Shown here one piece after another: positions 1-54,804 of a stretch of DNA of 64,000 bases. The stretch's first letter is position 1. The number at the start of each line of letters is the position of its first letter. The stretch covers positions 1,426,001 to 1,490,000 of the forward strand of contig CM035354.1 of the NCBI GenBank assembly GCA_020137815.1, read 5' to 3'. Under the pieces are notes generated by a model that was not told where the DNA came from, did not search any database, and saw only the letters and a list, made by a program, of their open reading frames with translations. A program made the translations under genes and the position numbers. This DNA is from Hormiphora californensis. Lineage: Eukaryota > Animalia > Ctenophora.

Positions 1-2140
1 GACAGGGGGTTAGAACAATTCCTGCTCAGTAGACAGGGGTGGGGGGTTAGACAGGGGGTTAGAACAATTCCTGCATCAGGAGACAGGGGTGGGGGGTTAG
101 ACAGGGGAGTTGAACTCGCTGCTCAGTCGACAGGGGGGGGGTAGACAGGGGTTAGAACGTCCTGCACATGAGACAGGGGTGGGGTTAGACAGGAGGGTTG
201 AAACAATTCCTGCATCAGTGATACAGGGGGGGGGTAGACGGGGTTATTAAGCCTGCATCATGAGACAGGCGTGGGGATGGTTAGACAGGGGTTAGAACGT
301 TGCATCAGGAGACAGGGGTGGGGGGTTAGACAGGGGAGAACGTCCTGCATCAGTGAGACAGGGTGGGGGGTAGAACATGGTTAGAACGTCCTGCATCAGT
401 GAGACAGGGGTGGGGGGGTAGACAGGGGTTGAACAATTCTGCATCAGGAACAGGGGTGGGGGGTAGTGGTTGACCATGTATAAGGTCCAAATAAGGCACA
501 GAACTTTCTGAATCAGCTTTTCAAGACGAATCCAACGCAACCGAATTAGCTCTCTATTCATCGGAAGTGCTGGGTCTGGAACCTTCATTTTTAGTCATTT
601 TTTCGGTGCGCGGGCCGAATCAGAGGCCTTTATTTTGAAATCCAGGCCTCTGATGGCTCGCGCACCGAAAAATAGCAAAAATTGAGAACAAAAACGAAAA
701 TGGCCAACCCCAGTCACTTCCCGAAGATAGAGTATCGTCTTGAATTCTAAAAGTAGAAAAGCTGTGCAATGGTTACCTTACCACTAGTGGGGTTAGACGG
801 GGAGACGTCTCTCTGGACGGGGTTCGGGGGCAATTCTACAGTGACTGGGGGTCAAGGGTTGAACGTCATCAAGCGGGTGGGATTACGTTAGCAATCTGGA
901 TATAGCGGTGCGGAGTAGGGTTGCGTCACTATGTAGACGGTGGGGGTTCGTAGTCTGATATAACAGGGGTGGCAGGGTGAACGTTCCACCTCAACGGGGG
1001 GGAGGAGGGTAACGTCTGCATCCCAGTGACGGGGTGTGGGTTAGACAGGCGTTAGTGAGCCTGATCAGTGAACAGGGTGTAACAGGGGACAATTGTCAGG
1101 GGGGATACAGGGGTTAGGACCTGCATCATGAGAGGGTGGGGGGTTAGACGGGGGTGTTAGAACTCCCTGCTCAGTAGACAGGCGTGGGGGGGATGGAAAG
1201 GGGGTTAGAACGTCCTGAGTCAGTGAGACAGGGGTGGGGTATGGCTTTAGACAGGGCGGTTAGAACAATTACTGGATCAGTGAGACAGGCGTGTGGGGAT
1301 GGTTAGACAGGGGTTGAACGTACCTGCATCCAGTGAAAGGACAGGGGTGGGGTTAGACAGGGGGTTAGAACGATCCTGCATACAGTGGAGACAGGGCGTG
1401 GGGGGTAGACGGGCAGGGGTTTAGAACTTCCTGCAGCATCAGTGACAGGGGAGGGTACAAGGGGGGAAGTCTGATCAGGCGACAGGGTGGGGGGTTAGAA
1501 GGCCGTAGAAGACCTGATCAGACGGGGGTGAACGGGTAGCTTCTGACATCAGGGGTGGTTGACGTTAACGTCATGATCAGAGACGAGGGGTGGGGGGGTT
1601 TAGACAGGGAGACGCCGCCAGGTCGACGTGGGGATGTAAGTAAACGTCCTGCATCATAGAGGTGGGTTGAGTGTAGAACACCTTACGAACGGTGGGGATG
1701 GTTGACAGTGTGACGTCCTGCGTAGACAGTGTGGGGTTTAGCAGGGTTAGAACGTCCTGCACATTAACAGGGTCCAGTTAAAGCCGCATCAGGAGTACGG
1801 TGGGGGGGGTTAGACAGGGGTTAGAACAATTCGCCAGGAGGGGTTGACAGGGTAGAAGGCCACATGGACGGGTGGGGGGTTAGACAGGGGGTTAGAACGT
1901 CCCTTGCATCAGAGCAGGGGTGGGGGGGTTAGAACAGGGGGTTAGGAACAATTCCTGCATCAGTCGAGACAGGGGTGGGGGGTGTAGGACAGGGGGTTAG
2001 ACAATTCTTTCCTGCATCAGTGAACAGGGGTGGGGGGTTAGACAGGGGTTAGAACAACTCATCGTGAGCAGGGGGGTGCGGGGGAGCCTGTCAGGGGAGA
2101 CAGGGGGGGTAGGAGACAATCACATGTAGTGAGACGTGGG
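1..2140. repeat. G-rich minisatellite (unit about 45-52 bp, GACAGGGGGTTAGAAC(AATT/GT)CCTGCATCAGTGAGACAGGGGTGGGGGGTTA), degenerate or noisy left part
   Basis: Same unit as the clean array at 7351-8622. Many indels here suggest a low-quality consensus. Confidence 0.9.
464..786. mobile_element. Small palindromic MITE-like insertion in the minisatellite
   Basis: Inner inverted repeat TTTTTCGGTGCGCG..ATCAGAGGCCT / AGGCCTCTGAT..CGCGCACCGAAAAA centred near 635; degenerate termini TAGTGGT...ACCACTA. Confidence 0.6.
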
Positions 2141-2175
2141 TACTTCTTGGTTACTTTGAGAGTTTTAGTGATCCT

Positions 2176-5110
2176 CTAATCCACTAGGCCATCCTTGGCA
2201 TAGAACCACCCATACGCCACCAATAAGTAAGGAATATGTTTTGCTGCCCAGTATAACCATCGATTAGGTGGACGATCAGGAATGTTATCGAGGTGTCTTT
2301 TGGAGTGCAGTCCTTGAACGATGTTAGAGGATACGCCTAATGTAACACGTGCAGGTAGAGTGTTCCATAGCTTAGGAGCCTTCACCGAGAAGCTATTTTC
2401 GTAAAGTGTACTAGAGCGTTTAGTAGAAGTGTTACGATCAGGAGGAGGGGGATACACCGCACGGATGCCTCTTGGAGAGGATGGATTGAACTTTATGGAG
2501 CCAGGAGCTAGGCCGTGAAGAATCTTCCAGCATGGATAATTGAGTATCGCTCTCGGCGTCTCTGCAGAGACATGATACCAAGAGTCGATAGCCGATCCCA
2601 GTAGTCGGTGCCAGCTGATTCAATTTTGGGCAACGAAGGAGCGCCTGAACATTTCAAGAGTCCTAATGTCTGCAGTGTGTAAGGATCCCAGAGAGGACAC
2701 ACATATTCTAATGGCTTCGGGACGAGGTTTTGTAGAGGGTAAGCATGGTTGCGTTATCCCTGGCCCGGAAAACACTAAGAGCCCAGCTTGCCATCTTCTT
2801 CCCTGGCTAGCCAGACTGGATATATGCTGAGAACCTGAAAGGCCGGAGTGAACAGTGAAACCCAGGTCCTTAACAAATTCCTTCTCCTCTAACAGCCCAT
2901 CATCAGGGATGACGTACTTCCTAAAATTGTCGATGAAAGGGAGATGACGAAGGAGTGACCGATTTTCACTGAAGGGCTCTGAGATAAGTAAATCGAATTT
3001 ATTCGGGTGAAGTTTCATGTTGTTGAATGAGGACCATGTTAAAGTAGCATCGAGGTCCTCTTGAAGATCCAGGACATCTTGCTGGCAAATGATCCTCTTG
3101 CTAAGACGGGTATCGTCAGCAAAGCGACCAACCTTTGAATGAGATACAGCCAAATCCAGGTCGTTCACAAAAAGGATGAAAAGAATAGGAGCCAGAACGG
3201 TCCCTTGGGGAACACCGCTGATGATAGTAATAGGTCTGGAACTAGCTCCCTTGGACAGTAACAGTTGTGTTCTACCGGAAAGGAAGATGATATCAGTCAA
3301 CAATTAATGGAGGAATCCATAAGCATGGAGTTTCTTCAGCAGAAGGTTATGGTCTATGGAATCACAAAGCTTTTGATAGTCCAGGTAGATGGTGTCTGTA
3401 GCTTACACCTTCTATAAGACCATCTGAACATCACCTAGATGGTCTAGAAGTTGTGTAGACAACTTTCCCACTACGGAAACCGTGTCTGGTAGGGGAAAGC
3501 AGGTTGTTATTCTCGACATAGTCCACAAAATGCTTTCTGAGACCCTTTCAAAGCATTGAACAACATGTGACGTCAGGGAAATAGGCCGATAGTTACCAGG
3601 GTCGATGTGGACCCTTCTTGTGAGAGGTAATATCGTGGCCCGTTGTAGAAACACAGGACCTATTCTTTCTTCTAGTGAAGTTTTCCAAATTATTGATAGG
3701 GGGGTAGCGAGTTCAACACAGCAGTGTTTAAGTAGTAAAGCCGGTATACCATCAGGACCGGATCCGGAACTGGGTTTCAGGTCTTTAAGGACAGAGATGA
3801 TATCGGCATGAATGTCAGTCTGTAACATGTCGGGAAAAGGGAACTGAGGTACTGTTTCCGGGGCAGTCCACTGAAGGCCTTCAGCATTAGGGTCGCTGAA
3901 GGAGGAAGAGAATTTAGACTGAAGGAGGTCTGCATAGCTGCCAGGGTCAGTGACTGCAGAGCCATCAGGGTCAAAGAAGGCAGCTTGATGGATGAATCGA
4001 GCCGGTTTAAGTGATTTAGCGTAATTAAAGAAAACTTTGGGATTTAGTTTTAAGTTCCGATCACCTTCTGTCACGATTCTCAATTTTGTTCACGATTGCC
4101 TGGGCCATTCTCCTCTAGGGCAACCGATTTTTCTCTGGGGGACTGAGAGCAGCTGGGTTGGAAGTAGGGAGGGACATGAGAGCAGCTATCCTTGCTTGAC
4201 GCGTCGTTTTCTCCGCGGAATACCATTGGCACACTTTAGGCTTCCAGATGTAGGGCGTCTGAGGGGAGGTGATCTTGGCAGATCTGAAGGAGCCGCTGGT
4301 GAGGAGTGTTCGGGGAAGGATTCGGGTGACGTGGACGATTGAAGTCCGCCAGTCAAAGTCGGAGATAGGTTTCTTGAGTTTGTCTAAGTCACCTCGATTA
4401 AAATCTAGAGCTCGGAATCCAATGATGGGAGGAGACTGGTGTTCCCTGTTCTGATGGTGACGGAGACACTGAGAGAGCAACATCAAAACCAACCGGTTGA
4501 TCAGACATGCGAGTGTCGTAAGCTGTTATTCTAGTCGCTAAAGTGGGGGATTAGTCAAGAGTATGTCTAGAATGTTGTTACCTCTAGTCGCCGTATCAAT
4601 CACCTGGGTCAGAAGAACTCTGACATGAGCTCAAAAGAAATACTAGCAGCGCGGAGTTTCCACATTGTTGAAATTTAATGAGAGAGAATCCCAGTCGATT
4701 TCAGGGAAATTAAGGTCACCTCAAAAACGATGGTCGAATCATCTGGAAGGTCAGCTAAAGAGTCTCGAGCAAAATCTATTAGTTCGGTAAATTCCTGCAG
4801 AGAAGCCTAGTGCCTGTAAGAACCGCCACACCCATTTGATAGTTTGGAAATAGCAAATAACTCCCTGACAAACAGAATTGTACAACTGTAGGTGGATGTA
4901 GCAGGGAGGTTTCATGGGCAAAGAGGGCAACACCGCACCGATCCTTCTTGTCCCGGTCTGCCCTGTAAGAGAGTATCCGGGATGCGACAGAGGACCCTCT
5001 GTTGTATGACTTGAACCACGATTCGGAGACAAGAATGAGGAATGGAGTGATTGGATCCGCCTCGTCCTCTACCATCATACGAAGCGCTTCCATCTTCCAT
5101 TCATTTTTGC
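2176..5110 (-). pseudogene. LINE ORF2 (APE endonuclease + reverse transcriptase), frameshifted
   Basis: Motifs are split over ORFs 4779-5480, 4115-4492, 3412-4083, 2620-3303, 2438-2702 and 2176-2457. The frameshifts may be decay or assembly error. Confidence 0.85.
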
Positions 5111-5489
5111 TTCCTGCAGCGTGTTCAAGCCTCCAGTCCCAGCATTTAATAGTAAAGGATGATATAGGGTTGGTTGGGGGTTGTTTAACCGAACATTGAG
5201 GGTGTTTGGGAGAAGGAAGACGTCCTGGAATGCTCAGGACCTGATGGTATGTAGTCATTTCCCCTGGCTGGACTGGAGTTCGGAAGTGGGTAACAACAGG
5301 TTGGGAGGGTACCATGGTGCTGTAAAGTTGAGGAGGAGGTACCATGGCGTCGTACCATTGTGGGTTGCAGTACTGCTGGGGAGGAGGGTACCATAGGGCT
5401 GTATTGATGGGACGTTGGGCACTGCGGTATGGAACTGTGGAGGGTAGGCACCGTGGTATACTCTGGAGGAGGTGGTGCAAGGGGGCAGT

Positions 5490-6890
5490 TCAGTTGAGGA
5501 GGGGGAAACTGCGGTATTGTATGCTGTGTGTGCCGTTGGGCAGGTCTGCTGAAGGGGCATCGTGTGGTAGGTCAGTTGAGAGGGGGGTACCGTAGGATGG
5601 ACTGCTGATGAGGAGGTACCGTGGGGATGAACTGCTGAGGAGGGGGCGCCATGGGGTTGAAATGCTGGGTAGGGGGCGCCATGGGGTTGAAATGCTGGGT
5701 AGGGGGCGCCATGGGGTCGTCCCGATGTGGAGGGGGCGCCATGTGATTGAACTGCTGAGGAGGGGGCGCCATGGGGTTGAATTTGCTGGGAGGGGGCACC
5801 ATGGAATCGTCCCGATGGGGAGGGGCAACTGTGGGATTGGTCTGTTGGGAGGGGGCACTCTGGAGTTGATGGGAGCAGGTTGGTGGCAGTTGCGTGATCC
5901 CCTCATAAGGTGGGGAATATCCCTGACGGACTCTTCTAAGCTGCGGGTCCGAAAAAGGGGATCCGTCTGGGGTATGCTGTGCTGGACCCCGCGACTCTCT
6001 GCAGTTTTAACGGGAGGTTTGTGCTGCACGGAGGTAAGATGGGAATGGGTGCAGCTCCGCTTGTCAGCAACAAAATCTGGACAGGCCTCTCCTCTCCTAT
6101 TATACTTGCAAATCTTGGGGTGGAAGAGAGTACAAGACTTGGTGGGGGGACAGCCTTTAATAGCATCCGTGCCAAACTTTTGGAAAACAGCACATTTAGG
6201 GGGGTGGGCGTATAGACAGCGGCGGCCTCTGATGAGACGGTTACCGCTCTTGCCATGAGGGCAACTCCCGTAAAAATAACGCGGGCAATTATCAGGTTCA
6301 TCGTTACTCTTCAATCCAGCCTGATGAGCCAATCGGTATTCTGCTAGTTGAGCTGCAAGGGGGTCTTTCAAGCCGTCCTGAGTATCTTTGGGGTCTGTCT
6401 GGGAACCGTGGGTAACTTGGGGGCTATCTGGCTCATCGGGTGTCAAATCAAGAGCATCTTTCAGTACAGCTTGCTGAACAGCTTGATCGTTACTCTTATC
6501 CGAAGGAGCAGCTTGGCTGGGCAGAGCTGCAGTATCTGTGGGTGTGGGTAGGTCGGCTTGGTTCAGCCCAGACAAATCGGTTCCGGATGAGGGTGAGTTA
6601 ACCACAGCATTCAGTTGGCTAGTGTTAGGGGGCGGAGGAGTAGGAGTAGGAGATGGGGAGGGAGTATTACAGTACAACGCTGGGTTGTAAGAGCAACCGC
6701 TACAGAGGATAATGGATCCCCTTACTCGGGTCACCTCCTGATAGCACTGCCCGTGAGAGGGGGAGCCACAGACTAAGCAAAGAAACGTACCCAGAGCTCC
6801 AGCTCCCTGGACTTTGAAAATCAAGGGATGAAGGCCACTAGTGTTACATCGAGGACAAGTAACACCCAGTTTGAGGTCAAAGAATTCCAT
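5490..6890 (-). CDS. LINE ORF1 protein: PHD-like Cys/His finger, tandem CCCH-like fingers and Pro-rich repeats
   Basis: CPRC...CLVC..H..C...CSGC; CPRYFYGSCPHG..CLYAH; C..F...GC....CTLFH; C.Y....C.....CTHSH. A 30-bp repeat at about 5630-5830 reads (MAPPPQQFNP)n in another frame, implying a frameshift. The true start may lie near 7137. Confidence 0.75.
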   Translation of the reverse strand: MEFFDLKLGVTCPRCNTSGLHPLIFKVQGAGALGTFLCLVCGSPSHGQCYQEVTRVRGSIILCSGCSYNPALYCNTPSPSPTPTPPPPNTSQLNAVVNSPSSGTDLSGLNQADLPTPTDTAALPSQAAPSDKSNDQAVQQAVLKDALDLTPDEPDSPQVTHGSQTDPKDTQDGLKDPLAAQLAEYRLAHQAGLKSNDEPDNCPRYFYGSCPHGKSGNRLIRGRRCLYAHPPKCAVFQKFGTDAIKGCPPTKSCTLFHPKICKYNRRGEACPDFVADKRSCTHSHLTSVQHKPPVKTAESRGVQHSIPQTDPLFRTRSLEESVRDIPHLMRGSRNCHQPAPINSRVPPPNRPIPQLPLPIGTIPWCPLPANSTPWRPLLSSSITWRPLHIGTTPWRPLPSISTPWRPLPSISTPWRPLLSSSSPRYLLISSPSYGTPLSTDLPHDAPSADLPNGTHSIQYRSFPLLN

Positions 6891-7308
6891 GATAGATGAG
6901 GCAAGTCCGCCTTAGTAACACCATCTTCTTCATTCAGGAACATCTCCAGGCATCTGAATTCTAATGAATTTATTGATACATTTAACAGTCTCTAGGAAAT
7001 CAGTAAGAGTGGACCCTTGTGTGCATTGACATTGATGAAACCATGTTTTTGATGATGATATCGAGAATGTTTTTGACAATGGTTTTTCCAGAAAAGACTT
7101 TCACAGATAACACAAGATCCTTAACCTTAATGAACATGATTATAGTTACTGTTGTGAGTAGTGGATAGTAGAAGGTTGATGTGTGGGGTCAGGAGATGTG
7201 ATGATGTGAAGGATTGAATGGAGTGAGTTCTTGACTTGGCTTGACGTGGCTTGGTCTTGAAGAGCTTGCTACAGGGTAGTGTGCGGCACTCTTTACATCA
7301 TCGCACAC

Positions 7309-7350
7309 CTCAAATTAATTTGTTTAAAGTAGTGTTGAAAAGTTTGAAAC
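7309..7350 (-). other. Ctenophore-type spliced leader (SL) exon sequence
   Basis: Minus strand reads GTTTCAAACTTTTCAACACTACTTTAAACAAATTAATTTGAG. This matches the Pleurobrachia/Hormiphora SL as I recall it, lacking about 2 nt at the 5' end. It lies exactly at the LINE/minisatellite junction. Confidence 0.85.
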
Positions 7351-8622
7351 GGGGGTTAGACAGGGGGTTAGAACGTCCTGCATCAGTGAGACAGGGGTGG
7401 GGGGGTTAGACAGGGGGTTAGAACGTCCTGCATCAGTCAGACAGGGGTGGGGGTTAGACAGGGGGTTAGAACGTCCTGCATCAGTGAGACAGGGGTGGGG
7501 GGTTAGACAGGGGGTTAGAACAATTCCTGCATCAGTGAGACAGGGGTGGGGGGGTAGACAGGGGGTTAGAACGTCCTGCATCAGTGAGACAGGGGTGGGG
7601 GGTTAGACAGGGGGTTAGAACAATTCCTGCATCAGTGAGACAGGGGTGGGGGTTAGACAGGGGGTTAGAACAATTCCTGCATCAGTGAGACAGGCGTGGG
7701 GGGGGGGGGTAGGGCAAGGGGGTTAGAACGTCCTGCATCAGTGAGACAGGGGTGGGGGATGGTTAGACAGGGGGTTAGAACAATTCCTGCATCAGTGAGA
7801 CAGGGGTGGGGGATGGTTAGACAGGGGGTTAGAACGTCCTGCATCAGTGAGACAGGGGTGGGGGGTTAGACAGGGGGTTAGAACAATTCCTGCATCAGTG
7901 AGACAGGGGTGGGGGGGTAGACAGGGGGTTAGAACAATTCCTGCATCAGTGAGACAGGGGTGGGGGGGTTAGACAGGGGGTTAGAACAATTCCTGCATCA
8001 GTGAGACAGGGGTGGGGGGTTAGACAGGGGGTTAGAACAATTCCTGCATCAGTGAGACAGGCGTGGGGGGGGTTAGACAGGGGGTTAGAACGTCCTGCAT
8101 CAGTGAGACAGGGTGGGGGGGGGGGGGGGGGGGGTTAGACAGGGGGTTAGAACGTCCTGCATCAGTGAGACAGGGGTGGGGGTTAGACAGGGGGTTAGAA
8201 CGTCCTGCATCAGTGAGACAGGGTGGGGGGGTTAGACAGGGGGTTAGAACAATTCCTGCATCAGTGAGACAGGCGTGGGGGGGGTAGGGCAAGGGGGTTA
8301 GAACGTCCTGCATCAGTCAGACAGGGGTGGGGGGTTAGAACGTCCTGCATCAGTGAGACAGGGGTGGGGGGTTAGACAGGGGCCGTTAGAACGTCCTGCA
8401 TCAGTGAGACAGGGTGGGGGGTTAGACAGGGTTAGAACGTCCTGCATCAGTGAGACAGGGGTGGGGGGTTAGACAGGGGGTTAGAACAATTCCTGCATCA
8501 GTGAGACAGGGGTGGGGGATTAGACAGGGGGTTAGAACGTCCTGCATCAGTCAGACAGGCGTGGGGGATGGTTAGACAGGGGCCGTTAGAACAATTCCTG
8601 CATCAGTGAGACAGGGCGTGGG
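7351..8622. repeat. Homogeneous minisatellite, about 50-bp unit with two interspersed variants (GAACAATTCCTGCA / GAACGTCCTGCA)
   Basis: About 25 directly visible tandem units. Confidence 0.97.
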
Positions 8623-8748
8623 GTGGACCCATTAAATTCTCAGAATTTGCGGACATCCCCGTTGGATATGTATTGTATGAAAAGTATATTCTTGAAGACA
8701 TCTCAGAAAACAACAAACATATTAAGAGAAACAAACTTTGCAGCTGTA

Positions 8749-8893: not shown

Positions 8894-9074
8894 ACTCCAC
8901 TATGAAATACTTAATATCTTGAATTTAATCTTGAATCTTGAATTTAATCTTGATTCTTGAATCTACAAGTACTAGTATATCAGTTGATGAAAGTTTCTGG
9001 ACGTGACAATAGGACAATGAGATTATTGTAGGGAAAGTTAGAGAATGCAGCAAAGTGAGAAAGAGGTGTATATA

Positions 9075-9720
9075 CAGGGTGTTCATATGGGATCTTTACA
9101 AGCGTTGGGCTTCACCTAGAAAAAATTTGACAAAATTAGCTTATGAAACTTCATACTTGGACTATTCTATACCCTCATTCAAGGTTCCTGGTGTTTCCGG
9201 AGCTCTAATACCCCTGGAAGTGTGTTTTTGGCATCAAAACTACCAGAAGGAATTTTTTGCTGGTGCTGAGACTTTGCTAGAATGTTTTTTGGGTATTTTC
9301 TATATCAATTCCAAAGTTTCATGATGATTGGATGTGTTTTATGAACTCAAAATTTCGAAAAAAGTGCCTGAAAAGACTCTAAAACATCAATTTTTGCCGT
9401 TTTTGAGCTGTTTTTGAGCCTTTCCAGCCAGTTTATTTGGAACTTGGTGACTGAACCACATATCGAATCATCATGAAACTTTGGAATTGACATAGAAAAT
9501 ACCCAAAAAACATTCTAGCAAAGTCTCAGCACCAGCAAAAAATTCCTTCTGGTAGTTTTGATGCCAAAAACACACTTCCAGGGGTATTAGAGCTCCGGAA
9601 ACACCAGGAACCTTGAATGAGGGTATAGAATAGTCCAAGTATGAAGTTTCATAAGTTAATTTTGTCAACTTTTTTCTGGGTGAAGCCCAACGCTTGTAAA
9701 GATCCCATATGAACACCCTG
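9075..9720. mobile_element. Tc1/mariner-like foldback MITE (about 650 bp)
   Basis: Near-perfect inverted arms of about 255 bp starting CAGGGTGTTCATATGGG, flanked by TA on both sides (9073-74, 9721-22). Confidence 0.9.
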
Positions 9721-10380: not shown

Positions 10381-13102
10381 ATTGGAGCGTACGGCCAAGG
10401 AACAAAACCAGTTTCACCCCAGCGATACTACGATCTGAGTCTCCGGAAAAACAAAGTTCAGACTTTCTGGAACCAACCTTCTCCTGAATTAAATAAAAAG
10501 TAATTAATCAATTAGTTAGATTAATAATTTGTAAGATTCTTTGACAGCTGTTCATGAGATCAAGACGAATATTTTCTGACATTGACAGCAAAAGTCTTTT
10601 TTTCCCTCTCTCTCTCACTTCCTCTCTCTATTCCACTTCCCAGGTTTGACTATAGTGAAGTAACGTCCAGCACGGAAAATGTGAAGGAATTCATTGCCCA
10701 TTTTATGGAGTTTGGTCTGGCTTTTCTTACCAATACCCCCCACCAAACTGGAGATATACTAAAGGTAATTGCACTTTTTTATTGGAAGAAGTTTTATATC
10801 TAAACGGGAAACAATTCATAACTTGATATACATGTGACATTTTAAAGGTCTGATACTGAGATACCATGTCCTATAATAGTGGGCGGACTCTAGTGCTAAC
10901 GGACTCTATCCTATATCCTACTCAGATTCTAGATACGTTGGAGGTTGGTCCTTATTGGGATAATATGTTTGGAACTGTATCACGTGTCAGCTTCATGAGT
11001 AAGTATAAGTAACACATGATATATGAGCTGTAGCTTGGTAACATAGACACCTGGCCACGGTGTCCTGGAATGAGGTTTTACCTCGCCTAGAGTGACCCGA
11101 GAAGTTACGGACCCTACCCCACGTATTTTTTGACGTAGAATCCGAAAAACATAAAATTAAAATCCTGTCATGTGCCGTTTTTGCGTAAAACGGCAAAAAC
11201 TGTCATTTTTAGCAATTTTCGTATTTTCCATGGCGCGACCGAGATTGAGCGGGGGTCGCACCAGGTGTCTATGTCACCAAGGGTCGCGCCAGTTGTCTAT
11301 GTCACCACCTCCACTCCCTCTTTTCAGATGATCCATCGAACCAGGCGTTTAATAACCAACACCTGGACCTACACACAGACATGCCATACTACACACAGAC
11401 CCCCTCTGCCTACTTCTTCCACTGTCTGGCCAATGAGCTGGAGGGGGGTGAGAGCTACTGGGCGGACACCTTTAGTGCTGTTCAAGAAATAAGGTAGGGG
11501 CATGCAGTAGCTGTCAGCGCGAACCACTCTCTTTGCTCGGCTCTTCTGCAGAGGGTAAGCGCGATGCCTGACAGATGTACTAGCTACATTTAGGTTTTGG
11601 TCGTCCAGTCCAATACTGCACTGATCTACGTGCAATTATTGCGAGCTATGAAGTATGGTTCTACTAAATATTGGTAGAAGCTGTGAAGATCACTAATCAT
11701 GAGTCCACTAGTCATGAGTCCACTATAATGGGCCTCATTGAAACTTTCAGCACAATTACCATGGTACTACCATATCATTAGTTTCTATTAAATTGCAACT
11801 AATGACCTGTGCGATGGTAGTAATGGCAGACATGTTATAGCTCCCAACTAGTAGTTGGGAGATAGAACACGTGTGATCTGAACAAGTCTGCAACTAAATA
11901 CTAATGACCTTTAATGCTCCAGCTCTGGTCTAGACACTAGTTACTTATTATGCTAGCTGCGTACCGGGTTCTTACTAAAACTCTTAAAACTAGAAATTCC
12001 TGGAATTTTAAAGAGCTTTTTAGAAAGAATTTCGAGTACTTGAGTTCTGCTTATTATAATAAGTTCCCCTGACCAAGTGCAAGAGAAATCTGCAGTGATC
12101 ACGACCTATCGCGCTAACCCTTTCTCTCGCTCTTTGAGCTTGGAGAGTGGTCGCACTGACAGAGAGAGAGAGTGGTCGCGCTGACAGAGAGAAATGGAGA
12201 TGGTGAAATGGTGATCACATACTGCATTATATGCGCAGCGAAATTCAAAATATATATCTCGGCTCAAACTCCAATTATTTCTCTGTTTCAGGGAATCTAG
12301 ACCGGATTACTACGAGTTACTGACTACTGTCTCCGTCCCGTTTCGTCAGTACGCCACGGGGTGGCACATGGCAGGAAGTTACCCAACTGTTGAGCTCATG
12401 AACGGGAACCTGTACCGGGTCAGGGACTGCATCTTTGTTATAGATACCTTCCAAATGACACGAGATCACCCCGCTGAGCTCAGAGAGAGGTGGTGGGAGG
12501 CATACAATCATCTGAGAGGACTGGTTACCGACACCAACCGGGCTGTCCAGGTGAGGTGGGGTGGGGGGGGGGAGTGAGGTCAGGGAGAGGTGGGGGAGGC
12601 ATACAATCATCTGAGAGGACTGGTTACCAACACCGACCGGGCTGTCCAGGTACGAGATATACTTAAAATATGGGGTGAGGTAGAGTGGCCAGGCCGGGGT
12701 AATTAGAGGGTACCGGGCTGTCCAGGTACGAGATATAGGGGGCTGCAGAGGATGTAGTTATCTAAAAGAGGGGTTGGGGAAATTAAAGAGGTCGGTGTGT
12801 ATAAATATACTCTTTTCGAAGGAGGCTAATTACTTCCACACCTTGGAGCGATTTCCTTGTCATACAGATCTTGTAATTACTGCTAATTATAATTAACCAC
12901 CCACATGCAGGTGAAGTTAGAGAGTGGGGACCTGGTGTTGATAGATAACTGGCGGGTTCAACATGCTCGTAATGCCTTCACAGTCAATGAGGCGAGTCAG
13001 GGAAAACACCGGGCTATGGAAGTGGTATATGTAGAGTGGAATCATGTCCAGAATAGGTTGCTGAGGAACGATGCCCAGACCAAACCCCTCATTTCAACTT
13101 AG
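10381..13102 (+). CDS. Fe(II)/2-oxoglutarate dioxygenase, gamma-butyrobetaine/trimethyllysine hydroxylase-like (TauD family), 5'-incomplete
   Basis: GT-AG exons with matching phases: 10381-10499, 10644-10764, 10926-10998, 11328-11493, 12292-12550, 12911-13102. Motifs FDYSEV, FGLAFL, LDLHTDMPYY (HxD), FHCL..E.EGGES.WAD and GDLVLIDNWRVQHAR (distal His and 2OG Arg). N-terminal exons were not found and probably lie left of the window. Confidence 0.9.
11034..11281. mobile_element. MITE with TIR CTTGGT(G/A)ACATAGACACCTGG in a dioxygenase intron
   Basis: 21-bp terminal inverted repeats. An internally deleted relative lies at 20255-20574. Confidence 0.7.
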
Positions 13103-23600: not shown

Positions 23601-25653
23601 CCTGCGGAAGAAGAGATTGGACAGGGGGTCGGGGGTGGGGCTCTTCCCCTACTCCTCCCCAAATTTTAAAGGCTGCCGTTCCTACCGCGGGGGGGACCCA
23701 CTCAACGGGACCAGGATTCACAATTCGCATATTGTTATAGGGCCTACAAGACCCGCTAACAACCTGAGACCGAGGAGCCAACTTCGATAAGCCGTAACTT
23801 TCATGGTGGACGAGGGTAGGACTACAACCACGATATGATATCATTAGTGTGTAAGTACCTGAAGTACTCCCTCGCCCGGACCGGAATGGAATCCCCTCCC
23901 TGATCCGTAAAGTAGGTGCAGAGTACTGTGCACCTCTGGTACCATTGGCTGACTCACTTCGGACTAAGAAAATCCCAGAATACTACAAAATGGGTCACAG
24001 TTGTACCCCCTACAAAAGGGGAACCAGTCGAGCACAAAAATTACCGACCTTTCACACTGACGAGCATTTACTAACACTGTTCGACGCGTATCGTCCAGGG
24101 CCCAGATGTTGAACATTGTTGAAAAAAATGGCCTTTTTTTTTTTTTTTCAAAAACACAGCAGGGCTTTCCGCAAAGGACGATCGTGTTTGGACCCACTTC
24201 TTGGCCACATAGACTGGTTAGTAAAAGCTTATGCGGTGAAAAAGAGAGACACTGTGTACCTCGCTCCCCACTCCCGCATTTTGACTATGAGTCGAGCTTA
24301 CCGCTGACCTTTGGTCTATGCTCGTTAAACTGAGGCGGTAATGGAGTCCACTCTCAGATTGTTGAATGGCGGAATCTTTCCTACCGATAGGAAACAGAAA
24401 GTGTGCTTGACGTGACGCTCACAATCTTATCGCGTACCATAATACGCGGTGTAACCCCAGGAAGTGTGTTAGAGCACCGCTCCTCTTCTTAAGTCTTTAA
24501 TCAATATCTTGAGTTATGGAGTTGAAAGATGCCTTACGTTCAGCTTCTTCCGCTGACGAACTCGAGAGCGGCGATGGCAATATCTATTCTGCTGATACTG
24601 AACATGTAACAGCTGCAGCAGGATCTGATCGATGATGGCTAGGTCAAGGACGAACAATAATGGTCCTAAACGAAGACAACAATTGCCTTACGACCCACAG
24701 ACACAACCCAAACTCCCGATGAATCTCTTTCCTATGGCGGGCATTTGAGTACAGCCTACCAACCAGTGGCGGTGCCACAAATCTCACCTTCGATCATGTA
24801 AGGGATCTGGGATTAAAGTTTCCTTCCAGTGACTTAATCCTGGAGACCACCTTGTCAATCTGTTTGGCCCAAGCGAGGAAGATGCCATGGCCATGGTGTT
24901 CGGGTGGTTCTCGCAGTTCGGGGACCCCTGACTGATAGCGCTGTTTCTTAAAACCCTGGTCATAAGCTTGATGGAGTACTTTGCTCTCCAGTGTGGATCC
25001 CGCAAACCTGTATGTGATATCCAACTGATCGAGTCTGTTCAGCAGCGGGGCTTCACAGGCGAAATCTCCGCTGAAGGACCTTGACTACGGAACGCCTAAA
25101 AGAAGCCCTCGACTACTTGATGTCTCTGCAAAGACGGTACTTTATAGGTATGCATTGCTAATCATGCACAAGACCCTACCGTGGGCTGATACCGAATGAA
25201 CCCGATATTTAGCTTCAAAATCAATCAAAAAATCAACCGTACCTCCCGCCACGGTGCCAAAGCCGAGAGATACCTGACCTGTCAACGGGTAAAGAGCCAA
25301 AGAACTGGCACAACTGTTGAATAGCTCTTTTATCCTTCGGTGTGCGAATAATATCACAACGGCGGTACCGCAGATCAGGGCGGGGGGAGGGTGGCGGGGC
25401 AACGGGGGGTGGAATTGTCCTCCGGAATGATCTGAGGGAGATCGAGGACCCTGATTTAGTTTTAAATGTAAGCTGGGCGCGCTCCTTCTCCGTTATAACC
25501 CAAACGCCCCCTAACCCTTGACATATCAGCCCCAACAGAACTCTTTGTCTGACTGGTTGTTGGAGCCAGTTTCACTAAACGGTGGTCCGATTCCCCCTGG
25601 GATGACCTGACGTATCATGGCTAAACAACTCAAAGTATAAAAAAAAGTAAGTA
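23601..25653 (+). mobile_element. 5'-truncated, heavily frameshifted CR1-group LINE (RT region), not resolved by the ORF track
   Basis: Frame-hopping translation gives, in order: GP.GIP (about 23880), NYRP..LT (24040), FRKGRSCL (24167), GV..GSVL.PLLF (24450), FAD (24550), DHVRDLG (24792), IQLIESVQ (25019), KDLDY.ERLK..LMSLQRR (25075-25137). Its 3' end CTCAAAGTATAAAAAAAAGTAAGTA resembles that of the first LINE. Confidence 0.85.
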
Positions 25654-38248: not shown

Positions 38249-41200
38249 TCACATAGAAGTGTCCCCCACTAACATTGTCATCCTACTCCTATCACGTGGC
38301 GTTCCCATCTTACCGCTCACTGTCATGGTCGTCTGCTGCTGTTTCTTTCTCCCCGCTGGAGATTGCACTGAGGAGTTCTGATCACGAGATGATCTAATCT
38401 TCTTAACGCGAGATCCGCACTTCCTGGGTAGTTGGGCAAAGAAGCTATCGTAGATAACAGGGTTTATTAGTGAGTTGAGGGGAAGGAAGATGGTGGAGAA
38501 GAGAGAGTAGTAGGAGATGAGGTTGAACACTTTGGCGTAGTGTAGGATGCAGGCAACCAGGAAGGGACACCTGCAGAGAGAGAGGGTTATCATTGTTAAC
38601 ATGGGTGTCAGACACCTGCAGAGAGAAATAACAGGTGTCAGACATGAATAATACAGTCGGATTTACCGGATTTACCGGGCAAAAGCCTTCCCTGAGCATC
38701 CCGGTAAATCGGGGTCCGACTATAGCACATCATGGGTGTCAGACATGAATAATAGTACGATTAATAATAGGACTGTACAGTAAGTTATAGGCATATCATC
38801 TGCATGAGTGCATGATGGTCGTGTTAGGGGAGGTGAGGAACGAAGGTGATGGTCGTGTTCACGCTTGTGTGGCTCACACCGTCATTTTATTGCGTGCTCG
38901 TTCGGTTGGTCAAGTTCACGCATGGAATCACGCCCCTCCACTACACAGCGGGGGAATGTTATAAATCAGGTATAACTTACCAACAAAATAGATCAGATAA
39001 AAGGATGAGGGTGATTTTCTGCTGGAGTGCGCCCCACCGTTTCCTAGCGTTGACCCTCCCCGCCGACTCCTGCGAGATGGTGTGCACGGAGATGTAGGAG
39101 GTTGCTATGACAACAAAACAGATACAATCCATCACTATGACAACCCAGGAATAGGTCCTCTGGGGGTCCTCCGGGGTCACAAAATACTTGAACAAACAAG
39201 AACTGCTACTCCCATAAAAGTTGAGTGATTTCAGTTCGATGGTCAGGTGAGGTTGGGAGGAGGGCGCTACGAACATCTTCCTGATCCTATCCTTCACGTT
39301 ACCAACATCTGCACTTGTCTCATTGAAATACTCCCGAACTACCCCCACCAAGTCTGCCTCTCGTCTGGGGCAGGAGATGAAGTTGGAACTGGGTAGGTAG
39401 AACCCATTGAGAAAGTAAGCGTCAATAAGAGGTCCAACTGTCGGTACCACAGCAACGAGAGTTGAAACCATGACAACGGATAAAACTCCAATAATGACCT
39501 TCGTGAAAAACGCTCGGTTCATCTGCTTAGAGTTAAACTGCCGCATTATGATCGCCCTGTACACACTAATAACCGTCATACTCAGAATTGAGAGTTGTGT
39601 GCCTAGAGTTGATAAAACACCCAACACTTGGCAGTTGAAGGAGGACTGCCAGTCGAATCTGTGAGCACAGAACTCCTCCCTCCACGCTATACTCTCCACA
39701 TTGAGGCCCACCAGGTACACAGCGACCAGGAAATCTCCCAACCCAACCAGGGAGATGAACACTGTAATGGTAAAGTTGATTTTAGTGTGTTTGGTGCACC
39801 CTACTAGGTGTCTAATGTTCCTAAAGATCACCACTGCATTGATGACAACAGCTGGCACTCCAATCAGCCATCCTAGGACTGCCAGGGGGGCAGAACTGAC
39901 AATCTTGTCCGTTCTACTGGGGCATCCTTCATGGCACTCGTCCCGGGAATTGGAACAGTCCCTGTGCTGATCACACACTTGGTCCCACCTGTAGTAACAA
40001 TTAGGTTAATAATACCTATGGGATTCCCATTGGGAACAGACAAACAAACAAACAAACAAACAGTAAACAAGAACACACAAAAACACAAACACACAAACAG
40101 ACAAACACCCGTACCTGATATACTCATTCTCAGTACAGCTGAAGTGGTTCACACATCCCTCCTCGTCTGACCGGTCCCCGCAGTCATCAATCAGGTCACA
40201 TACATGTACGTGACTTGTATAGTTCCCATTCTTACACACAAATATCTCCCTGTGTTTAGGAGTTGTCCCGACACCGGGGGGGGGGGGGGCCGGCCCCCTC
40301 TGGGATTTACAATTTCTTTGAAATTCAGGGGGATTTTTGGGGCACCGTCGCTGTGCGCTCCCAAAATGGGCCTTGGCCCCCCCTGAAAATCATCCGTGTC
40401 GTGGCCCTTGCTTATAATATGTGAGCTATATTAAGACGGATGGGTAATTTCATTACCAAATAGTAAACAAACAAACAGTAAACATTACCAATTAGTACCG
40501 ACCTGTGTTTAGGGGTTGTTCCATTATCCACCAGTTCAACAAACTCTAGAGTGTTGGAAGTGGTGAGACCTAGGTTCCGGTTGGGCAGCGAGGGGCATGT
40601 GGTCCTGTAGTGTATGGGCTGGGTAGATGCCAATAATGGGCAGGTTATATTCTCACCACAGTGCCCCAAACATGCTGCATATACGTAGTCCAGTCCATAG
40701 AGAGTGGAACAGTTGTATTGGACCCCCGGGAGAACGTATATTGTGATCGGCTTAGCTCCGTAAATCTCCGGGAGAAGAGTTTCTGCATCGCAGTTACTAT
40801 GGCTACCGATGCATTCCCGTGAGAGGTACCTCTCGAAATCAGTGTTGTTTACTGAAGCTGTTTCCAGGCTGTGTTTGAGCTTGGTAGTGGAGCACAGAAC
40901 ACCCTCAAGCTCCGGACAATCCTCCTTATTCCTACCATTGCACAGCTCCCTGGGGTCATAGAACACAGAGGGATTGGAGGGACATTTGAACATCACCCCG
41001 CATTCTGTTTCCAAGGTAACGTAAACAGTTGTGTTGTCATAGCGACACTCCTTCCACCTAGTTGCATCCTCATCCTCCCCTCCCACACAATCTCTCCTCC
41101 CATCCATAACCCAGGATCTCAAGATAGGGAGAGTAGTGGTATTGTCCCTGTAATCCCACCTCACCCTCCTGACACAACTCACATTAGTTTCCAACTCTGC

Positions 41201-44200
41201 ACATGACACAGAGTCAGGACACTCCTTACATGTTTGTTTGTCTGTGTGGTTGTTGGTTTGTTTGTCTGTGTTGGACCCGGAACAAATAAGGTGACGATGT
41301 ATCGATTCAGTTGTAGTGCGGGGTAGACACCACGTTGTAATGCCATCATCACACAAACCCCCCACAGCCGTGTCACACAACACATTGTCACTCACAGTCA
41401 CCCTCTTACCCTCCCTCTCACATTCAAGGGACCCACAACCGAGCTGATCAATACCATTTCGGCACATCCTGAACCCGGCCGCAGAGGGGAATGGACCACA
41501 TTTCTGGGCGGGATACACACCGCGTCTGAGGTTTTCATTGTTAGAAACCTGTCCTATACAATGTGAGATTGGAGTGCTACAAAGTTCCCCTTCCTGGTCA
41601 GCTCCGTTTTGACATGATGCAGTCCTGTTTAAACAGAGATCTCGGGGCGGAATCCACCGTCTGATCCCATCATCTGTCCCATTGCATTCCACCCCAAACT
41701 GGTGGCCACACCCCACCTCGTCCTCTCCGTAGTCACAGTCTTTAGTCCCGTCACACATCTTATCCATATCCAGCACAGTAGGGGAGTGGGGACACCTATA
41801 TTGGGAAGTAGAGGGGGGGGGGGTTGAGTTGGGGAGTAAATAGGGGGGTGGGGGTTGAGTGGGGGCGCCCATCACACACCTTCACCATGTCCAACACAGT
41901 AGGGGAGTGGGGGCACCTATATAGGGGAGTGGGGGGGTTGAGTGGGGACACCTTCACCCTGTCCAGCACAGTAGGGGAGAGGGGACACCTATATAGGGGA
42001 GTGGGGGGGTTGAGTGGGGACACCTATAATAGGAAATAGGGGGGAGTGAGTGGGGAGGGTTGAGTGGGGACAGTAGTCACCCATCACACACCTTCACCCT
42101 GTCCAACACAGTAGGGGAGTGGGGACACCTATAATAGGAAATAGGGGGGTTGAGTGGGGTATTGCAAGTACTGTAGTACAGTCGGACCCCGATTTACCGG
42201 GATGCTCGGGGGAAAGGGTTTTGCCCGGTTAATCGGGGTGCCCGGTATATCGGGGTCAAATACTGTTAATTTTCTATTTCGGGGGAAGATTATCCTCCCG
42301 GTAAATCGGGGCCCGGACTTACTACTACTAGTAAGTCTCTCTCTCTCTCACCTGTAAATGGTAGATTTGTCACACAGTTCCTGATTTACGGCCCCATTTT
42401 GGCACGTTTTCTCAGTGTTACAATGAACCTCCCTCATCGGACCTATCCCCGATCTGTTAGCCACCGAAAACCCTTTCCGGTATCTGTGGAAAGATATAGA
42501 AATATCAGGGGCCGTTAGCCAAGAGATCCTGTGATCTGGCACCGCGGACCCCACCTAAGCGCACTGTCGCAATTTGAGAATCAAATCGGGGTGTGGCGCC
42601 ACCAGACAGATAAGACTGTGGTAATATACCTGCAAAGGTAGTGTCCACACACGGGGTGATCCTTGTCAGCGCTGTAACGATAAGATGTGTCCTGCTTGTT
42701 ACTTCCACGGGTTACACAGACCTGACGGAGAGAGAGAGGGGGGGGGTCACACAGACATGATAGGTAGAGGGGGAGAGAAAGGGTTATACAGAATACAGAC
42801 CTGCAGATAACGAGATAGGGGGTCAGACAGACATAGATGGAGATAGAGGGAGAGACAGCCCTCTCGGGAGGGGGTTTTGTAGACATAGATAAAGAGAGGG
42901 GAGACATAAAGACATTGCATAAGACAATAGCTGTACCAACTTGCTCTCTTATGATTTTGTGGGACGGGTAGGGGATAAAGAGTGGCTCACATCTTCATTT
43001 TATTCCTGTAGGTCAAATAAAGAGAGACCTTTGACAAAGTTCTCTCTTTATTTTGGTCCTTTGTTCTTGCCAGGAATTCTACAGAATCACATCATATTGA
43101 TGGTCCATCAAGTATATTACAGGGGTAACATGGCACGGGAGACATAGCTGTACTATAACAGCTTCTCGGAAAGAGCCATCTCACGGCCGCCGGGGTTCTG
43201 AAGAATCTAATAATGTCTTTTATAATGTAAATCGTAAATCCACGGCCAGACAAGTATAAAATAGCAGCCAAGCTATTAATGGATGATCGATTAATATTAC
43301 TTTGTCGAGACAAAGTCCAAGTTATAACTTTATAACCTTTTATAACCTTTTATAAATGGTCAAACTTTATTATTTTCATTAAATATATTCTTTGAATGGT
43401 ATTACAGTCGGACCCCGATTTACCGGGATCCTCGGGGGAAGCCATTTTGCCCGGTAAATCGGGGTGCCCGGTATATCGGGGTAGAGCATATATATTTGAC
43501 CCATAAACCCTTCCCATAAATCCTACTTTTGTCCAAACTTCTATACCAAGACACCTCTAACTGTATAGTATACATTTATTGATGACAATATGATCATTGC
43601 TTCTGTCATTAGAATTAGAAATAGAAAATTTAAAAAATTCAAAAAAAAATTGTAAAAACTTTTTCTAAGGTAAACCACCCCGATCGAGTCCGAATCGTGT
43701 TTCGAATCGGTGCATCGTATCGCATGTCCTGCCGCTAATTAGACGGTTCGAAACGAACCGATATGTGATACCATGCCGAATCTGGGCACCCTAAGCGGGG
43801 TGAGGAAGTATCAAAGTTTCAAAATAACTTTTTCTCTGAAAATTTACGGGGAGCATCGATCAAAGCATTGACAATGATTCTGTAAAATTTCGCAAAAAAA
43901 GTTATGAAATTTTTCTAAGGTATACCAGCCACGTTCGAATCGTGTTTCGAATAGGTGCATCTTATCAAGTGTCCTGCCGCTAATTAGACGGTTCGAAACG
44001 AACCGATACGTGATCCCCATTAGACCTAGCGAATTGCAAATGCAAGTTTACCAACCGGCAAAACTTCGAAAATTTTCCAAAAAAAATCGGGGGAAAGAAA
44101 TCCTCCCGGTAAATCGGGGTTCCGGTAAATCGGGGCCCGGTAAATCGGGGTCCGACTGTACATAGTTCTGAGAAGTAGAAATGTTTGTAAGTTTAAGTGA

Positions 44201-53700: not shown

Positions 53701-54804
53701 AGGAATAAGAAGTGGAGGAATAGGGTGATGTTAAATGGAGAGGAATAAGAAGTGGAGGAATAGGGTGATGTTAAATGGAGAGGAATAAGAAGTGGAGGAA
53801 TAGGGTGATGTTAAATGGAGAGGAATAAGAAGTGGAGGAATAGGGTGATGTTAAATGGAGAGGAGTGAGTAGTGTGTGTTGGTGATGAGCCTGGAGAGGA
53901 CCGGGTGGAGGGTATCAAAAACAAACACACATACACACATACAACTGCATGGAAGAATTAAAGATTTAGTGCAGTACTAAAATTCAATAATCAGCTAAGG
54001 CCAGAAACTTTCGGCTGAACATTTATGTCAGGCATCAGAAGCTGTATATTACAACAATGAAGTCTAGTTACCTGAAGAAGGCGTTGTCCCCGCAGTAAGC
54101 CTCATCGGGGGAACCGTTAGCACACTCTCCATAGTTCCCATTGCAGTGTACCCGACTCAGCTCATATGACCCACTCACAATAGTGGTACCAAAGATAGGG
54201 TTATCCTTCTGGCAGATATAGTTGGAACAGAGGACTCGCTTGCCTCCATAACTGATAACTCCATCAGATTGGAAGAGACTCGTGTCAGGAGGGTGGATGC
54301 CACAGTTCTGGTAGAAACCCGGGTCACCACTGCACAGGTTCCCGAGGAAGTGGACCAGTTTGGGGTTGGATGAGGTCACAGGTGTAGGTCTCTCCCAGGT
54401 TGTGCCAGCAGTAGTAATGGTCAGGGTTGTCAGGGTGGGTGGGTTTGAGGAAGGAGTTCACCACTCGGACTGTGTAGTTTGCAACTGCGGGTGTACCTGC
54501 AGGGAGTTGTTGCATTGAGTAAGGGGTGACAACAACACGCAGGGATCAGGGGGATTGTAATTGAGAGAAACATAATCAATGAACACATGACATAATTAAT
54601 AACACGATTATAATTGGTGTTATATGTTCCAACATAACGCTGAGTTTCCCGATCCGAAGCCCCGGGCCCCGGGCAGCCTGGCAAGTGTAGCAACTAAAAA
54701 CATTTTGCCGAATAGTAGTTGTACCTTCAAGGTATTTGGCATTACATACCTTGACAAGAGGCAATGAATAGTAGAAACCACAGGAGCTGCGATACCAAGT
54801 TCAT
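50788..54804 (-). CDS. LDLa-repeat class A GPCR (GRL101/RXFP-like 7TM, no LRRs), paralog 2, about 1105 aa, one apparent frameshift
   Basis: Exons (minus): 54804-54750 (signal peptide MNLVSQLLWFLLFIASCQG), 54496-54072 (frame break near 54360-54400), 53626-50788 (single 2.8-kb exon). LDLa repeats CDGIQDCIGYEDE, CDGKADCPFALDE, CDLTNDCGDFSDE, CDGKIDCSNGKDE. 7TM motifs FGDFLVGVYL, FTDSLCWVP, LPINSLLNPLLY. Confidence 0.92.
53629..53865. repeat. 40-bp tandem repeat (x6) of the polypyrimidine tract preceding exon 53626
   Basis: GAAGTGGAGGAATAGGGTGATGTTAAATGGAGAGGAATAA repeated; on the minus strand the array ends at the acceptor AG. Confidence 0.93.

What the first reader, a model, noticed from the sequence alone, without database searches (positions are those of the whole stretch)
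2141..7350. A LINE retrotransposon capped by the spliced leader: retrotransposition of an SL-trans-spliced mRNA
Seen: the 5' terminus of a full-length CR1-group LINE (minus strand) is GTTTCAAACTTTTCAACACTACTTTAAACAAATTAATTTGAG (7350-7309). It abuts the target minisatellite directly, with no SL-RNA gene context upstream. Established: ctenophores use SL trans-splicing, and this 42-mer matches the Pleurobrachia/Hormiphora SL as I recall it. The known SL-linked retroelements (NeSL-1 in nematodes; SLACS/CZAR/CRE in trypanosomatids) are site-specific restriction-like-endonuclease elements inserting into SL gene arrays, which differs from this APE-type element in a minisatellite. Inference: the LINE transcript was trans-spliced and then reverse transcribed to within about 2 nt of the cap. 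The leader ends in an AT-rich ...TTAATTTGAG, so the integrated copy carries a ready-made 3' acceptor. Any read-through transcript could be re-trans-spliced there, regenerating an identical capped 5' end each cycle without an internal promoter. This would be a promoter-independent LINE life cycle that exploits host trans-splicing. Caveat: here the element is probably antisense to the dioxygenase host intron.
Basis: partly seen in the sequence, partly recalled or inferred. Interest (0 to 1): 0.95.

Follow-up and report, generated by a model that had tools for sequence, protein, structure and literature searches.

The report
Comb-jelly LINEs start with spliced leader
A jumping gene (LINE) in a comb-jelly genome begins with the short leader that these animals splice onto their messenger RNAs, as do ten other elements in public contigs, so these elements likely copy themselves from leader-spliced RNA and likely get a fresh leader each round; whether they then need no promoter of their own is untested.

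Summary
Confirmed and not a one-off. 7350-7309 equals nt 3-44 of the published Hormiphora leader and 42 of the 43 nt of the SL RNA exon in L022, which continues GTAAG where the window continues into LINE UTR. It heads a two-ORF APE-RT LINE set in a minisatellite. An exact 29-mer scan gave 34 loci: 23 mRNA-like, 1 SL/5S array, 10 retroelements from several deeply split lineages, all with 35-43 leader nt. The leader is unchanged where neighbouring UTRs differ by 27%. Read contigs join this family's UTR at the same base to the known leader and to a second TTGAG-ending block, probably another leader; a related species' family also runs into the leader. Best reading: repeated trans-splicing renews the 5' end. 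Promoter independence is unshown; the GAG acceptor is non-consensus. In print: leader-bearing LINE/LTR loci suggested in flatworms, SL-capped CR1 RNA in Hydra, dinoflagellate retrogenes; none found for ctenophores. The scan's notes report the same pattern in dinoflagellates, Perkinsus and Euglena.

The parts
7309..7350 (-). Copy of the spliced-leader exon, 42 of 43 nt, forming the 5' end of the element
   Evidence: Identical to published leader nt 3-44 and to the exon of the SL RNA gene in L022
7138..7308 (-). 5' UTR, 171 nt, starting GTGTGC (not the SL intron GTAAG); two minimal upstream ATGs
   Evidence: covered by read contigs X1, X2, X5, X9, X12
5185..7137 (-). ORF1 region, broken by indels: PHD-like Cys/His pattern, CCCH-like fingers, proline-rich 30-bp repeats; 3' end uncertain
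   Evidence: tblastn with P0121 7125-6087; ORF pieces; related to L020 ORF1, E 9e-9; motif names recalled, Pfam gave only a weak RING-like hit
2187..5075 (-). ORF2 region (APE endonuclease + reverse transcriptase), broken by indels
   Evidence: Pfam RVT_1 E 1e-11; P0001 (APE+RT) residues 1-972 map here
2141..2186 (-). 3' end with a short degenerate repeat tail
   Evidence: Sequence
7351..8623 (.). 51-bp minisatellite, 5' flank, clean copies
   Evidence: TRF
780..2140 (.). Same minisatellite, 3' flank, noisy; unit continues in register across the insertion point
10381..13075 (+). Context: exons of a TauD-family dioxygenase gene on the opposite strand
   Evidence: Pfam TauD on 2 of 4 exon pieces scanned; frames

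Best explanation
This is a full-length APE-type LINE whose first 42 bases are the host spliced-leader exon, and it was likely copied from LINE RNA that had been trans-spliced, with the leader likely renewed each round because the AG ending the copied leader would serve again as the splice acceptor. Steps: (1) shown: the leader exon, without SL intron or SL-gene upstream DNA, is joined at its last base to the 5' UTR in the window and 10 other elements; (2) inferred: RNA begins at or upstream of the copied leader, from flanking read-through or an internal promoter (about even odds); (3) inferred: the spliceosome replaces the old leader with a new capped one at the same base; (4) inferred: ORF2p reverse transcribes to 0-3 nt short of the cap (0-8 seen) and integrates the copy. 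The leader thus plays the part that an internal promoter or a 5' ribozyme plays in other LINEs: it restores a defined 5' end.
For: Leader status: 23 of 34 scanned loci have it at the contig start before an ORF, 20 of the 23 with non-transposon Pfam hits; L022 is the SL RNA/5S array. Generality: 10 of 34 loci are retroelements: 7 with ORF1 plus APE ORF2, 3 ORF1-like only (L032 folds like L1 ORF1p, E 1.6e-7). ORF2 lineages are under about 34% identical between groups and split in a tree. All 7 loci with 15 or more nt of upstream DNA other than L022 are elements, none a host retrocopy. Renewal: L003, L008, L034 join the leader at the same UTR base while their first 140 nt are 72-73% alike; chance of an unchanged 29-mer at that rate about 0.015 per lineage. 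Clipping is 0-8 nt, median 2, in 11 of 11 copies, with no deeper erosion seen. In X2 the UTR contig (depth 844) forks at 7313/7314 into the known leader (375) and a different AT-rich block ending in the same TTGAG (about 336 by subtraction); X5 shows that second block; both branches stop 24-27 letters past the junction, as shared leaders would. Organism B (X9, X12, two studies, about 91% alike) also runs into the leader. Hydra has full-length SL-capped CR1 RNA (legend).
Against: The scan required an exact 29-mer, so decayed leaders and leader-less families could not appear and the fraction of capped families is unknown. The acceptor would be GAG, while 6 of 6 inferred cis acceptors nearby are CAG. 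L016, L020, L032 keep TTTYAG just behind the leader, a better acceptor that should remove itself if used. The second block is not confirmed as a leader: no match in 34 loci, the window, viral or prokaryote contigs. Selection could keep a cis-copied leader unchanged. Contig depth is not copy number, runs are only guessed to be DNA, 14 pieces were not shown and rare variants are dropped. This copy is antisense to its neighbour gene.
Confidence: 0.68

Rival explanations
1. Source copies keep their own 5' end (promoter or outron plus acceptor), possibly the second TTGAG-ending block; trans-spliced RNA gives leader-capped progeny that are mostly dead ends, like processed pseudogenes.
For: About half of the 5' ends in X2 and the only one shown in X5 carry the second block; it matched no leader record. 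Human L1 copies that lose promoter sequence by splicing are usually dead on arrival (PMC11838501 passage).
Against: The block's contig stops 26-27 letters past the junction, like the known-leader contigs, instead of running into a longer element-specific region; it ends in the TGAG motif shared by ctenophore leaders, and the main leader made only 55% of detected leader sequences in H. californensis (PMC10282587 passage). Contigs of 7 families with open ORFs start with the leader.
Confidence: 0.17
2. One old capture per lineage: the leader became a fixed part of the element, copied in cis from an internal promoter and kept unchanged by selection for translation or stability.
For: A conserved motif follows the leader in L016, L020, L031, L032 (z 6-8, 0-1 of 300 shuffles); internal promoters are the usual LINE solution (PMC2861651 passage); exact-match ascertainment.
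Against: Two different blocks at one junction in one family; 1-3 nt lost per insertion would accumulate under cis copying but does not; the leader matches the present SL gene in lineages under 34% alike.
Confidence: 0.1
3. The junction arose by template switching or RNA ligation (U6-L1 type), by insertion into an SL RNA gene (NeSL/CRE type), or is an assembly chimera.
For: The window is error-rich here; the UTR starts with GT like a donor.
Against: 11 of 11 copies join at the last exon base with no SL intron; none of the 8 with 15 or more upstream nt has SL-gene upstream DNA; the 3' flank is minisatellite, not SL intron; the endonuclease is APE; separate short-read data sets hold the junction.
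Confidence: 0.05

Closest known systems
Flatworm LINE/LTR loci with partial leaders (PMC12582326, section 6: 597 loci; PMC5832876: 6 in Schistosoma mansoni)
   Same: Genomic retrotransposon copies carrying the host leader, proposed to come from trans-spliced transcripts.
   Different: There a side remark on discarded loci with partial leaders, assembly chimeras not excluded in one paper; here near-complete leaders at the exact 5' end of several families, with junction position and renewal examined, in a ctenophore.
Hydra SL-capped transposon RNAs (PMC12220107; about 30% of TE Iso-Seq reads; Fig. S5a legend: full-length CR1 with SL-B1)
   Same: LINE RNA is a substrate of host SL trans-splicing.
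   Different: RNA level only in the passages read; leader-capped genomic copies were not described there.
Dinoflagellate SL-relic retrogenes (PMC12014239; Slamovits and Keeling 2008 as cited there)
   Same: Leader fixed in DNA by retroposition and re-trans-spliced later.
   Different: Cargo is host mRNA and re-splicing uses an AG inside the leader, leaving tandem relics; here all DNA-type loci other than the SL gene are retroelements and no tandem relic was seen, as expected if the terminal AG is used.
SL-gene-targeting RLE elements NeSL, CRE, SLACS, CZAR (NeSL and CRE per PMC4640811 passages; others recalled)
   Same: Non-LTR element next to leader sequence.
   Different: Those insert into SL genes with a restriction-like endonuclease; this is APE-type, sits in a minisatellite and carries the leader as its own head.
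LINE 5'-end renewal by internal promoter (jockey, I, L1) or HDV-like ribozyme (L1Tc; abstracts in listings)
   Same: Solves the same problem: restoring a defined 5' end each cycle.
   Different: Here the host spliceosome and SL RNA would do it.
CR1-group LINEs
   Same: APE+RT ORF2, PHD-like ORF1, short repeat tail (group features recalled).
   Different: Clade not tested against named references; 5' end is host-derived.

Membership tests
Ctenophore spliced-leader exon | Sequence identity to the published leader | tested here: met
   42 of 42 nt equal nt 3-44 in PMC8527503
Ctenophore spliced-leader exon | Joined at its last base to many unrelated mRNAs | tested here: met
   23 of 34 loci; 20 of 23 with host-gene Pfam hits
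Ctenophore spliced-leader exon | Encoded by an SL RNA gene with GT donor and stem-loops | tested here: met
   L022: GTAAG donor, three stem-loops, z -3.2, 778-bp repeat with 5S rRNA
SL RNA gene (window site) | SL intron after the exon and SL-gene DNA upstream | tested here: not met
   Window continues GTGTGC into LINE UTR and is preceded by minisatellite
APE-type LINE | ORF2 with APE and RT domains after an ORF1 | tested here: met
APE-type LINE | 3' repeat tail and target-site duplication | tested here: inconclusive
   Short degenerate tail; no TSD recognisable in a noisy flank
CR1 group | RT phylogeny with named CR1/L2 references | not testable with these tools
   All 120 listed homologs were unnamed; PDB gave only L1, R2 and a group II intron RT
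CR1 group | PHD-type ORF1; ORF2 without RNase H | tested here: inconclusive
   Cys/His pattern seen by eye, no Pfam PHD hit; P0001 has only APE and RT families
SL-gene-specific RLE elements (NeSL/CRE/SLACS/CZAR) | Restriction-like endonuclease | tested here: not met
   APE domain instead
SL-gene-specific RLE elements (NeSL/CRE/SLACS/CZAR) | Inserted in SL RNA genes | tested here: not met
   0 of 8 copies with 15 or more upstream nt have SL-gene DNA
Dinoflagellate-type SL-relic retrocopies | Leader fixed in DNA at the 5' end of a retrocopy | tested here: met
   11 copies
Dinoflagellate-type SL-relic retrocopies | Tandem relic leaders from repeated recycling; host-gene cargo | tested here: not met
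   Only L022 holds the 29-mer twice; no relic seen in UTR alignments; 0 of 10 loci in the two DNA-type assemblies are host genes
U6-L1-type chimera | Whole small RNA, or variable junction, fused to the LINE | tested here: not met
   Junction at the last exon base in 11 of 11
Promoter-less, trans-splicing-dependent LINE (proposed) | No internal promoter; copied leader's AG used as acceptor | not testable with these tools
   Needs capped 5' reads and reporter assays; only indirect signs

The most novel reading that the evidence does not exclude
Ctenophore LINEs of several deeply split lineages have given up their own promoters: any transcript running through a copy is cut and recapped by SL trans-splicing at the AG of the copied leader, so the host spliceosome regenerates the element's 5' end every generation, and a large share of the 718 genomic leader copies counted in Hormiphora are heads of such elements.
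Probability: 0.35. Interest if true: 0.85.

Novelty: new variant of a known kind. Interest (0 to 1): 0.66.

Why it matters
How a LINE keeps a complete 5' end through reverse transcription is a core problem of its life cycle, with known answers in internal promoters and ribozymes. Here the data point to a further answer, the host's SL RNA, in an animal and across unrelated LINE lineages. It offers a testable account of the 718 leader copies reported without classification in the H. californensis genome (PMC8527503 passages), warns that SL-gene counts and first-exon annotation in ctenophores are contaminated by LINE heads, gives a tag for finding full-length young LINEs, and hints at a second, uncatalogued leader class. 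Existing Iso-Seq and long genomic reads can decide it.

Tried and rejected
No genome is held for the window, so copies could not be counted. Rfam: no hit in the window. Scan of metagenome contigs with the window's first 28 UTR nt: 0; viral contigs with the leader: 0, with P0001: 0 loci. No RNA holder listed; the RNA-guessed run X14 held leader-joined contigs but had no cover on the UTR: no evidence either way. The second block was not found in loci, window, viral or prokaryote contigs, collections that would hardly hold it. The hairpin behind the leader folds no better than shuffles (z -1.5): dropped. Pfam and PDB sequence searches did not name the L032 family; only the fold search did. Atlas hits for L031 and L032 are leads only. 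A weak spider-toxin Pfam hit on an off-frame piece (E 0.034) is treated as chance. Derelle 2010 was not held; supplements of PMC8527503 could not be read and may bear on what the 718 copies are and on other leader classes. PMC3795323 lists no ctenophore leader. The APE tree's bootstrap had not settled and used 5 of 7 loci and the first 40 homologs of 960-1050 aa. Rejected: SL gene at this site, NeSL/CRE-type targeting, U6-type chimera, one-off event.
Full report
Observation. The minus strand at 7350-7309 holds the 42-mer, directly behind a clean 51-bp minisatellite. It equals nt 3-44 of the leader printed for Hormiphora californensis, where 56% of Iso-Seq reads carry it and 718 genomic copies were counted without, in the passages read, saying what they are (PMC8527503, passages; supplements unreadable). 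The host is therefore a pleurobrachiid-type ctenophore by leader identity. Behind the leader come a 171-nt UTR, ORF1 from 7137 and ORF2 5075-2187 with APE and RT. The minisatellite resumes in register at 2140; no TSD is readable. Many frameshifts are absent from read contigs at full depth, and repeat quality falls towards the left of the window, so they are probably assembly errors; intactness cannot be judged.

Is it the leader, and is the site an SL gene? An exact scan with the last 29 nt gave 34 loci (35 rows, L022 twice). In 23 the leader stands at the contig start before an ORF; 20 of these 23 have ordinary host Pfam families and 3 have none. L022 is the SL RNA gene, repeated every 778 bp with a 5S rRNA gene, with a GTAAG donor and three stem-loops. 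The same intron start and upstream letters appear as loose ends in run X1. The window has neither, so it is a copy of the spliced exon, 42 of an inferred 43 nt.

Is it a one-off? No. The other 10 loci are retroelements. L003, L007, L008, L015, L021, L034 form one group (ORF2 45-81% alike) and L020 another; each has a 400-470-aa ORF1 and an APE ORF2 (L003 below the Pfam cut-off but 81% identical to L034). Between these groups and the window's relative P0001, ORF2 identity is 21-33%. L016 and L032 carry only an ORF1-like gene; the L032 model matches human L1 ORF1p (E 1.6e-7, pTM 0.36), it ends in an AAT tail, and 18 relatives were found, most on contigs of 1-1.8 kb. L031 is ORF1-like on weaker grounds (atlas lead 0.91, shared UTR motif). 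In the two assemblies that look like DNA, 9 of 10 loci are elements and 1 is the SL array; in the six that look like RNA, 23 of 24 are mRNAs and 1 is L020 (DNA or RNA judged from content only). The scan cannot show decayed or leader-less copies, so no fraction of families can be given.

This family. Short-read contigs carry the junction in X1 and X2 (one sample) and in organism B, X9 and X12 (two studies, about 91% alike); they hold 24-27 letters on the leader side, below the tool's bar for a bridge. In X2 the UTR contig (depth 844) forks five bases into the leader: one branch is the known leader (375), the other a 22-letter AT-rich block before the same TTGAG (about 336 by subtraction). X5, another sample, shows only the second. 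Both kinds of branch end 24-27 letters past the junction, which with 31-letter words means a fork 3-7 nt behind the GAG, as expected for a block joined to many different sequences. I read it as a second leader class (about 0.75); I could not confirm it. If these runs are RNA rather than DNA, they would show LINE RNA with two leaders, which supports the same junction. Depth is not copy number and 14 pieces were not shown.

Mechanism. Joining at the last exon base in 11 of 11 copies, without intron, is the mark of spliceosomal trans-splicing, not of template switching or insertion into SL genes. Three points favour renewal over a single capture: the leader equals today's SL gene while adjacent UTRs of L003, L008, L034 are 72-73% alike over 140 nt with the junction at the same base; clipping stays at 0-8 nt, median 2; and one family has two blocks at one junction. 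If capped copies are the parents, the AG at that base is the leader's own. Against: it is GAG, whereas 6 of 6 cis acceptors inferred in the neighbouring gene are CAG, and three elements keep an apparently unused TTTYAG six bases further on, which L031 lacks. Outron acceptors are reported to be looser than intron acceptors in Schistosoma (PMC5832876 passage). The RNA's source is open. For read-through: L020, from an RNA-like assembly, starts with GTAAG and runs 351 nt into the leader on the same strand, one case only, and a donor upstream could divert splicing in cis (PMC4558846 passage). For an internal promoter: a motif 15-40 nt behind the leader is shared by L016, L020, L031, L032 despite unlike ORF1s, and the window copy is antisense to its neighbour. 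I put routine origin from trans-spliced RNA at about 0.9, renewal at about 0.7, promoter independence at about 0.35.

What is known. PMC12582326 (passages and section 6) set aside 597 flatworm loci with partial leaders beside LTR and LINE elements and suggested this origin; PMC5832876 (passages) noted 6 in S. mansoni and allowed for chimeric assembly; PMC12220107 (passages and a supplement legend) shows SL on about 30% of Hydra TE reads and on a full-length CR1 RNA; PMC12014239 (passages) covers dinoflagellate relics; PMC4640811 (passages) covers SL-targeting RLE clades; PMC11838501 (passages) covers L1 chimeras and promoter co-option; PMC10282587 (passages) says the main Hormiphora leader made 55% of detected leaders. 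Passages of PMC7986045, PMC12460157, PMC9911081, PMC11067881, PMC2861651 and PMC3795323 added no such case. L1Tc ribozyme papers were seen as listings only. Derelle 2010 was not held. Ten searches found no report of leader-capped LINEs in ctenophores nor a test of renewal; subscription papers and Repbase notes were not covered. CR1-group membership rests on recalled features and was not tested against named references. The scan's own unchecked notes describe the same pattern in dinoflagellates, Perkinsus and Euglena; none for this genome or sequence.

Verdict. Real, family-wide and shared by several lineages: a new variant of a known kind. The leader-capped copy itself has precedent; the evidence that the leader is the standard, renewed 5' end of animal LINE families, and the possible second leader, are new in my searches. 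Interest 0.66; 0.85 if promoter independence is shown.

Noticed in passing
L022:263-850 and repeat: SL RNA gene and 5S rRNA gene alternate in a 778-bp tandem unit; the SL RNA folds into three stem-loops with a U-rich Sm-like stretch between the last two.
   Followed up: partly
window 7313/7314 in runs X2, X5: A second AT-rich block ending in TTGAG is joined to this LINE's UTR; probably an uncatalogued second ctenophore leader.
   Followed up: partly
L016, L032: About 1.2-kb leader-capped elements with a single L1-ORF1p-like gene and no ORF2; L032 ends in an AAT tail; 18 related proteins found. Likely non-autonomous ORF1-only retroposons.
   Followed up: partly
L016, L020, L032, first 6 nt after the leader; L031: TTTYAG follows the leader in three elements; L031 shares the downstream motif but lacks it, as if spliced at that second acceptor.
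   Followed up: partly
L020, contig start: The contig begins with a GTAAG donor 351 nt upstream of the leader on the same strand, in an RNA-like assembly: possibly an intron read through into the LINE.
   Followed up: no
window 50788-53730 and 38977-41881 (-): Long single-frame ORFs with LDL-receptor class A repeats followed by hydrophobic, GPCR-like segments (Pfam LDLa; GPCR likeness by eye).
   Followed up: no
window 23837-24471 (+): Degraded fragment of another reverse transcriptase (tblastn E 3e-5).
   Followed up: no
window about 9060-9720: Long inverted repeat, MITE-like, seen by eye.
   Followed up: no
window 1-2140: Minisatellite copies are far noisier here than at 7351-8623, suggesting low-coverage assembly.
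   Followed up: partly
window 7309-7314: The ctenophore leader ends in the same six letters as nematode SL1 as listed in PMC3795323.
   Followed up: no
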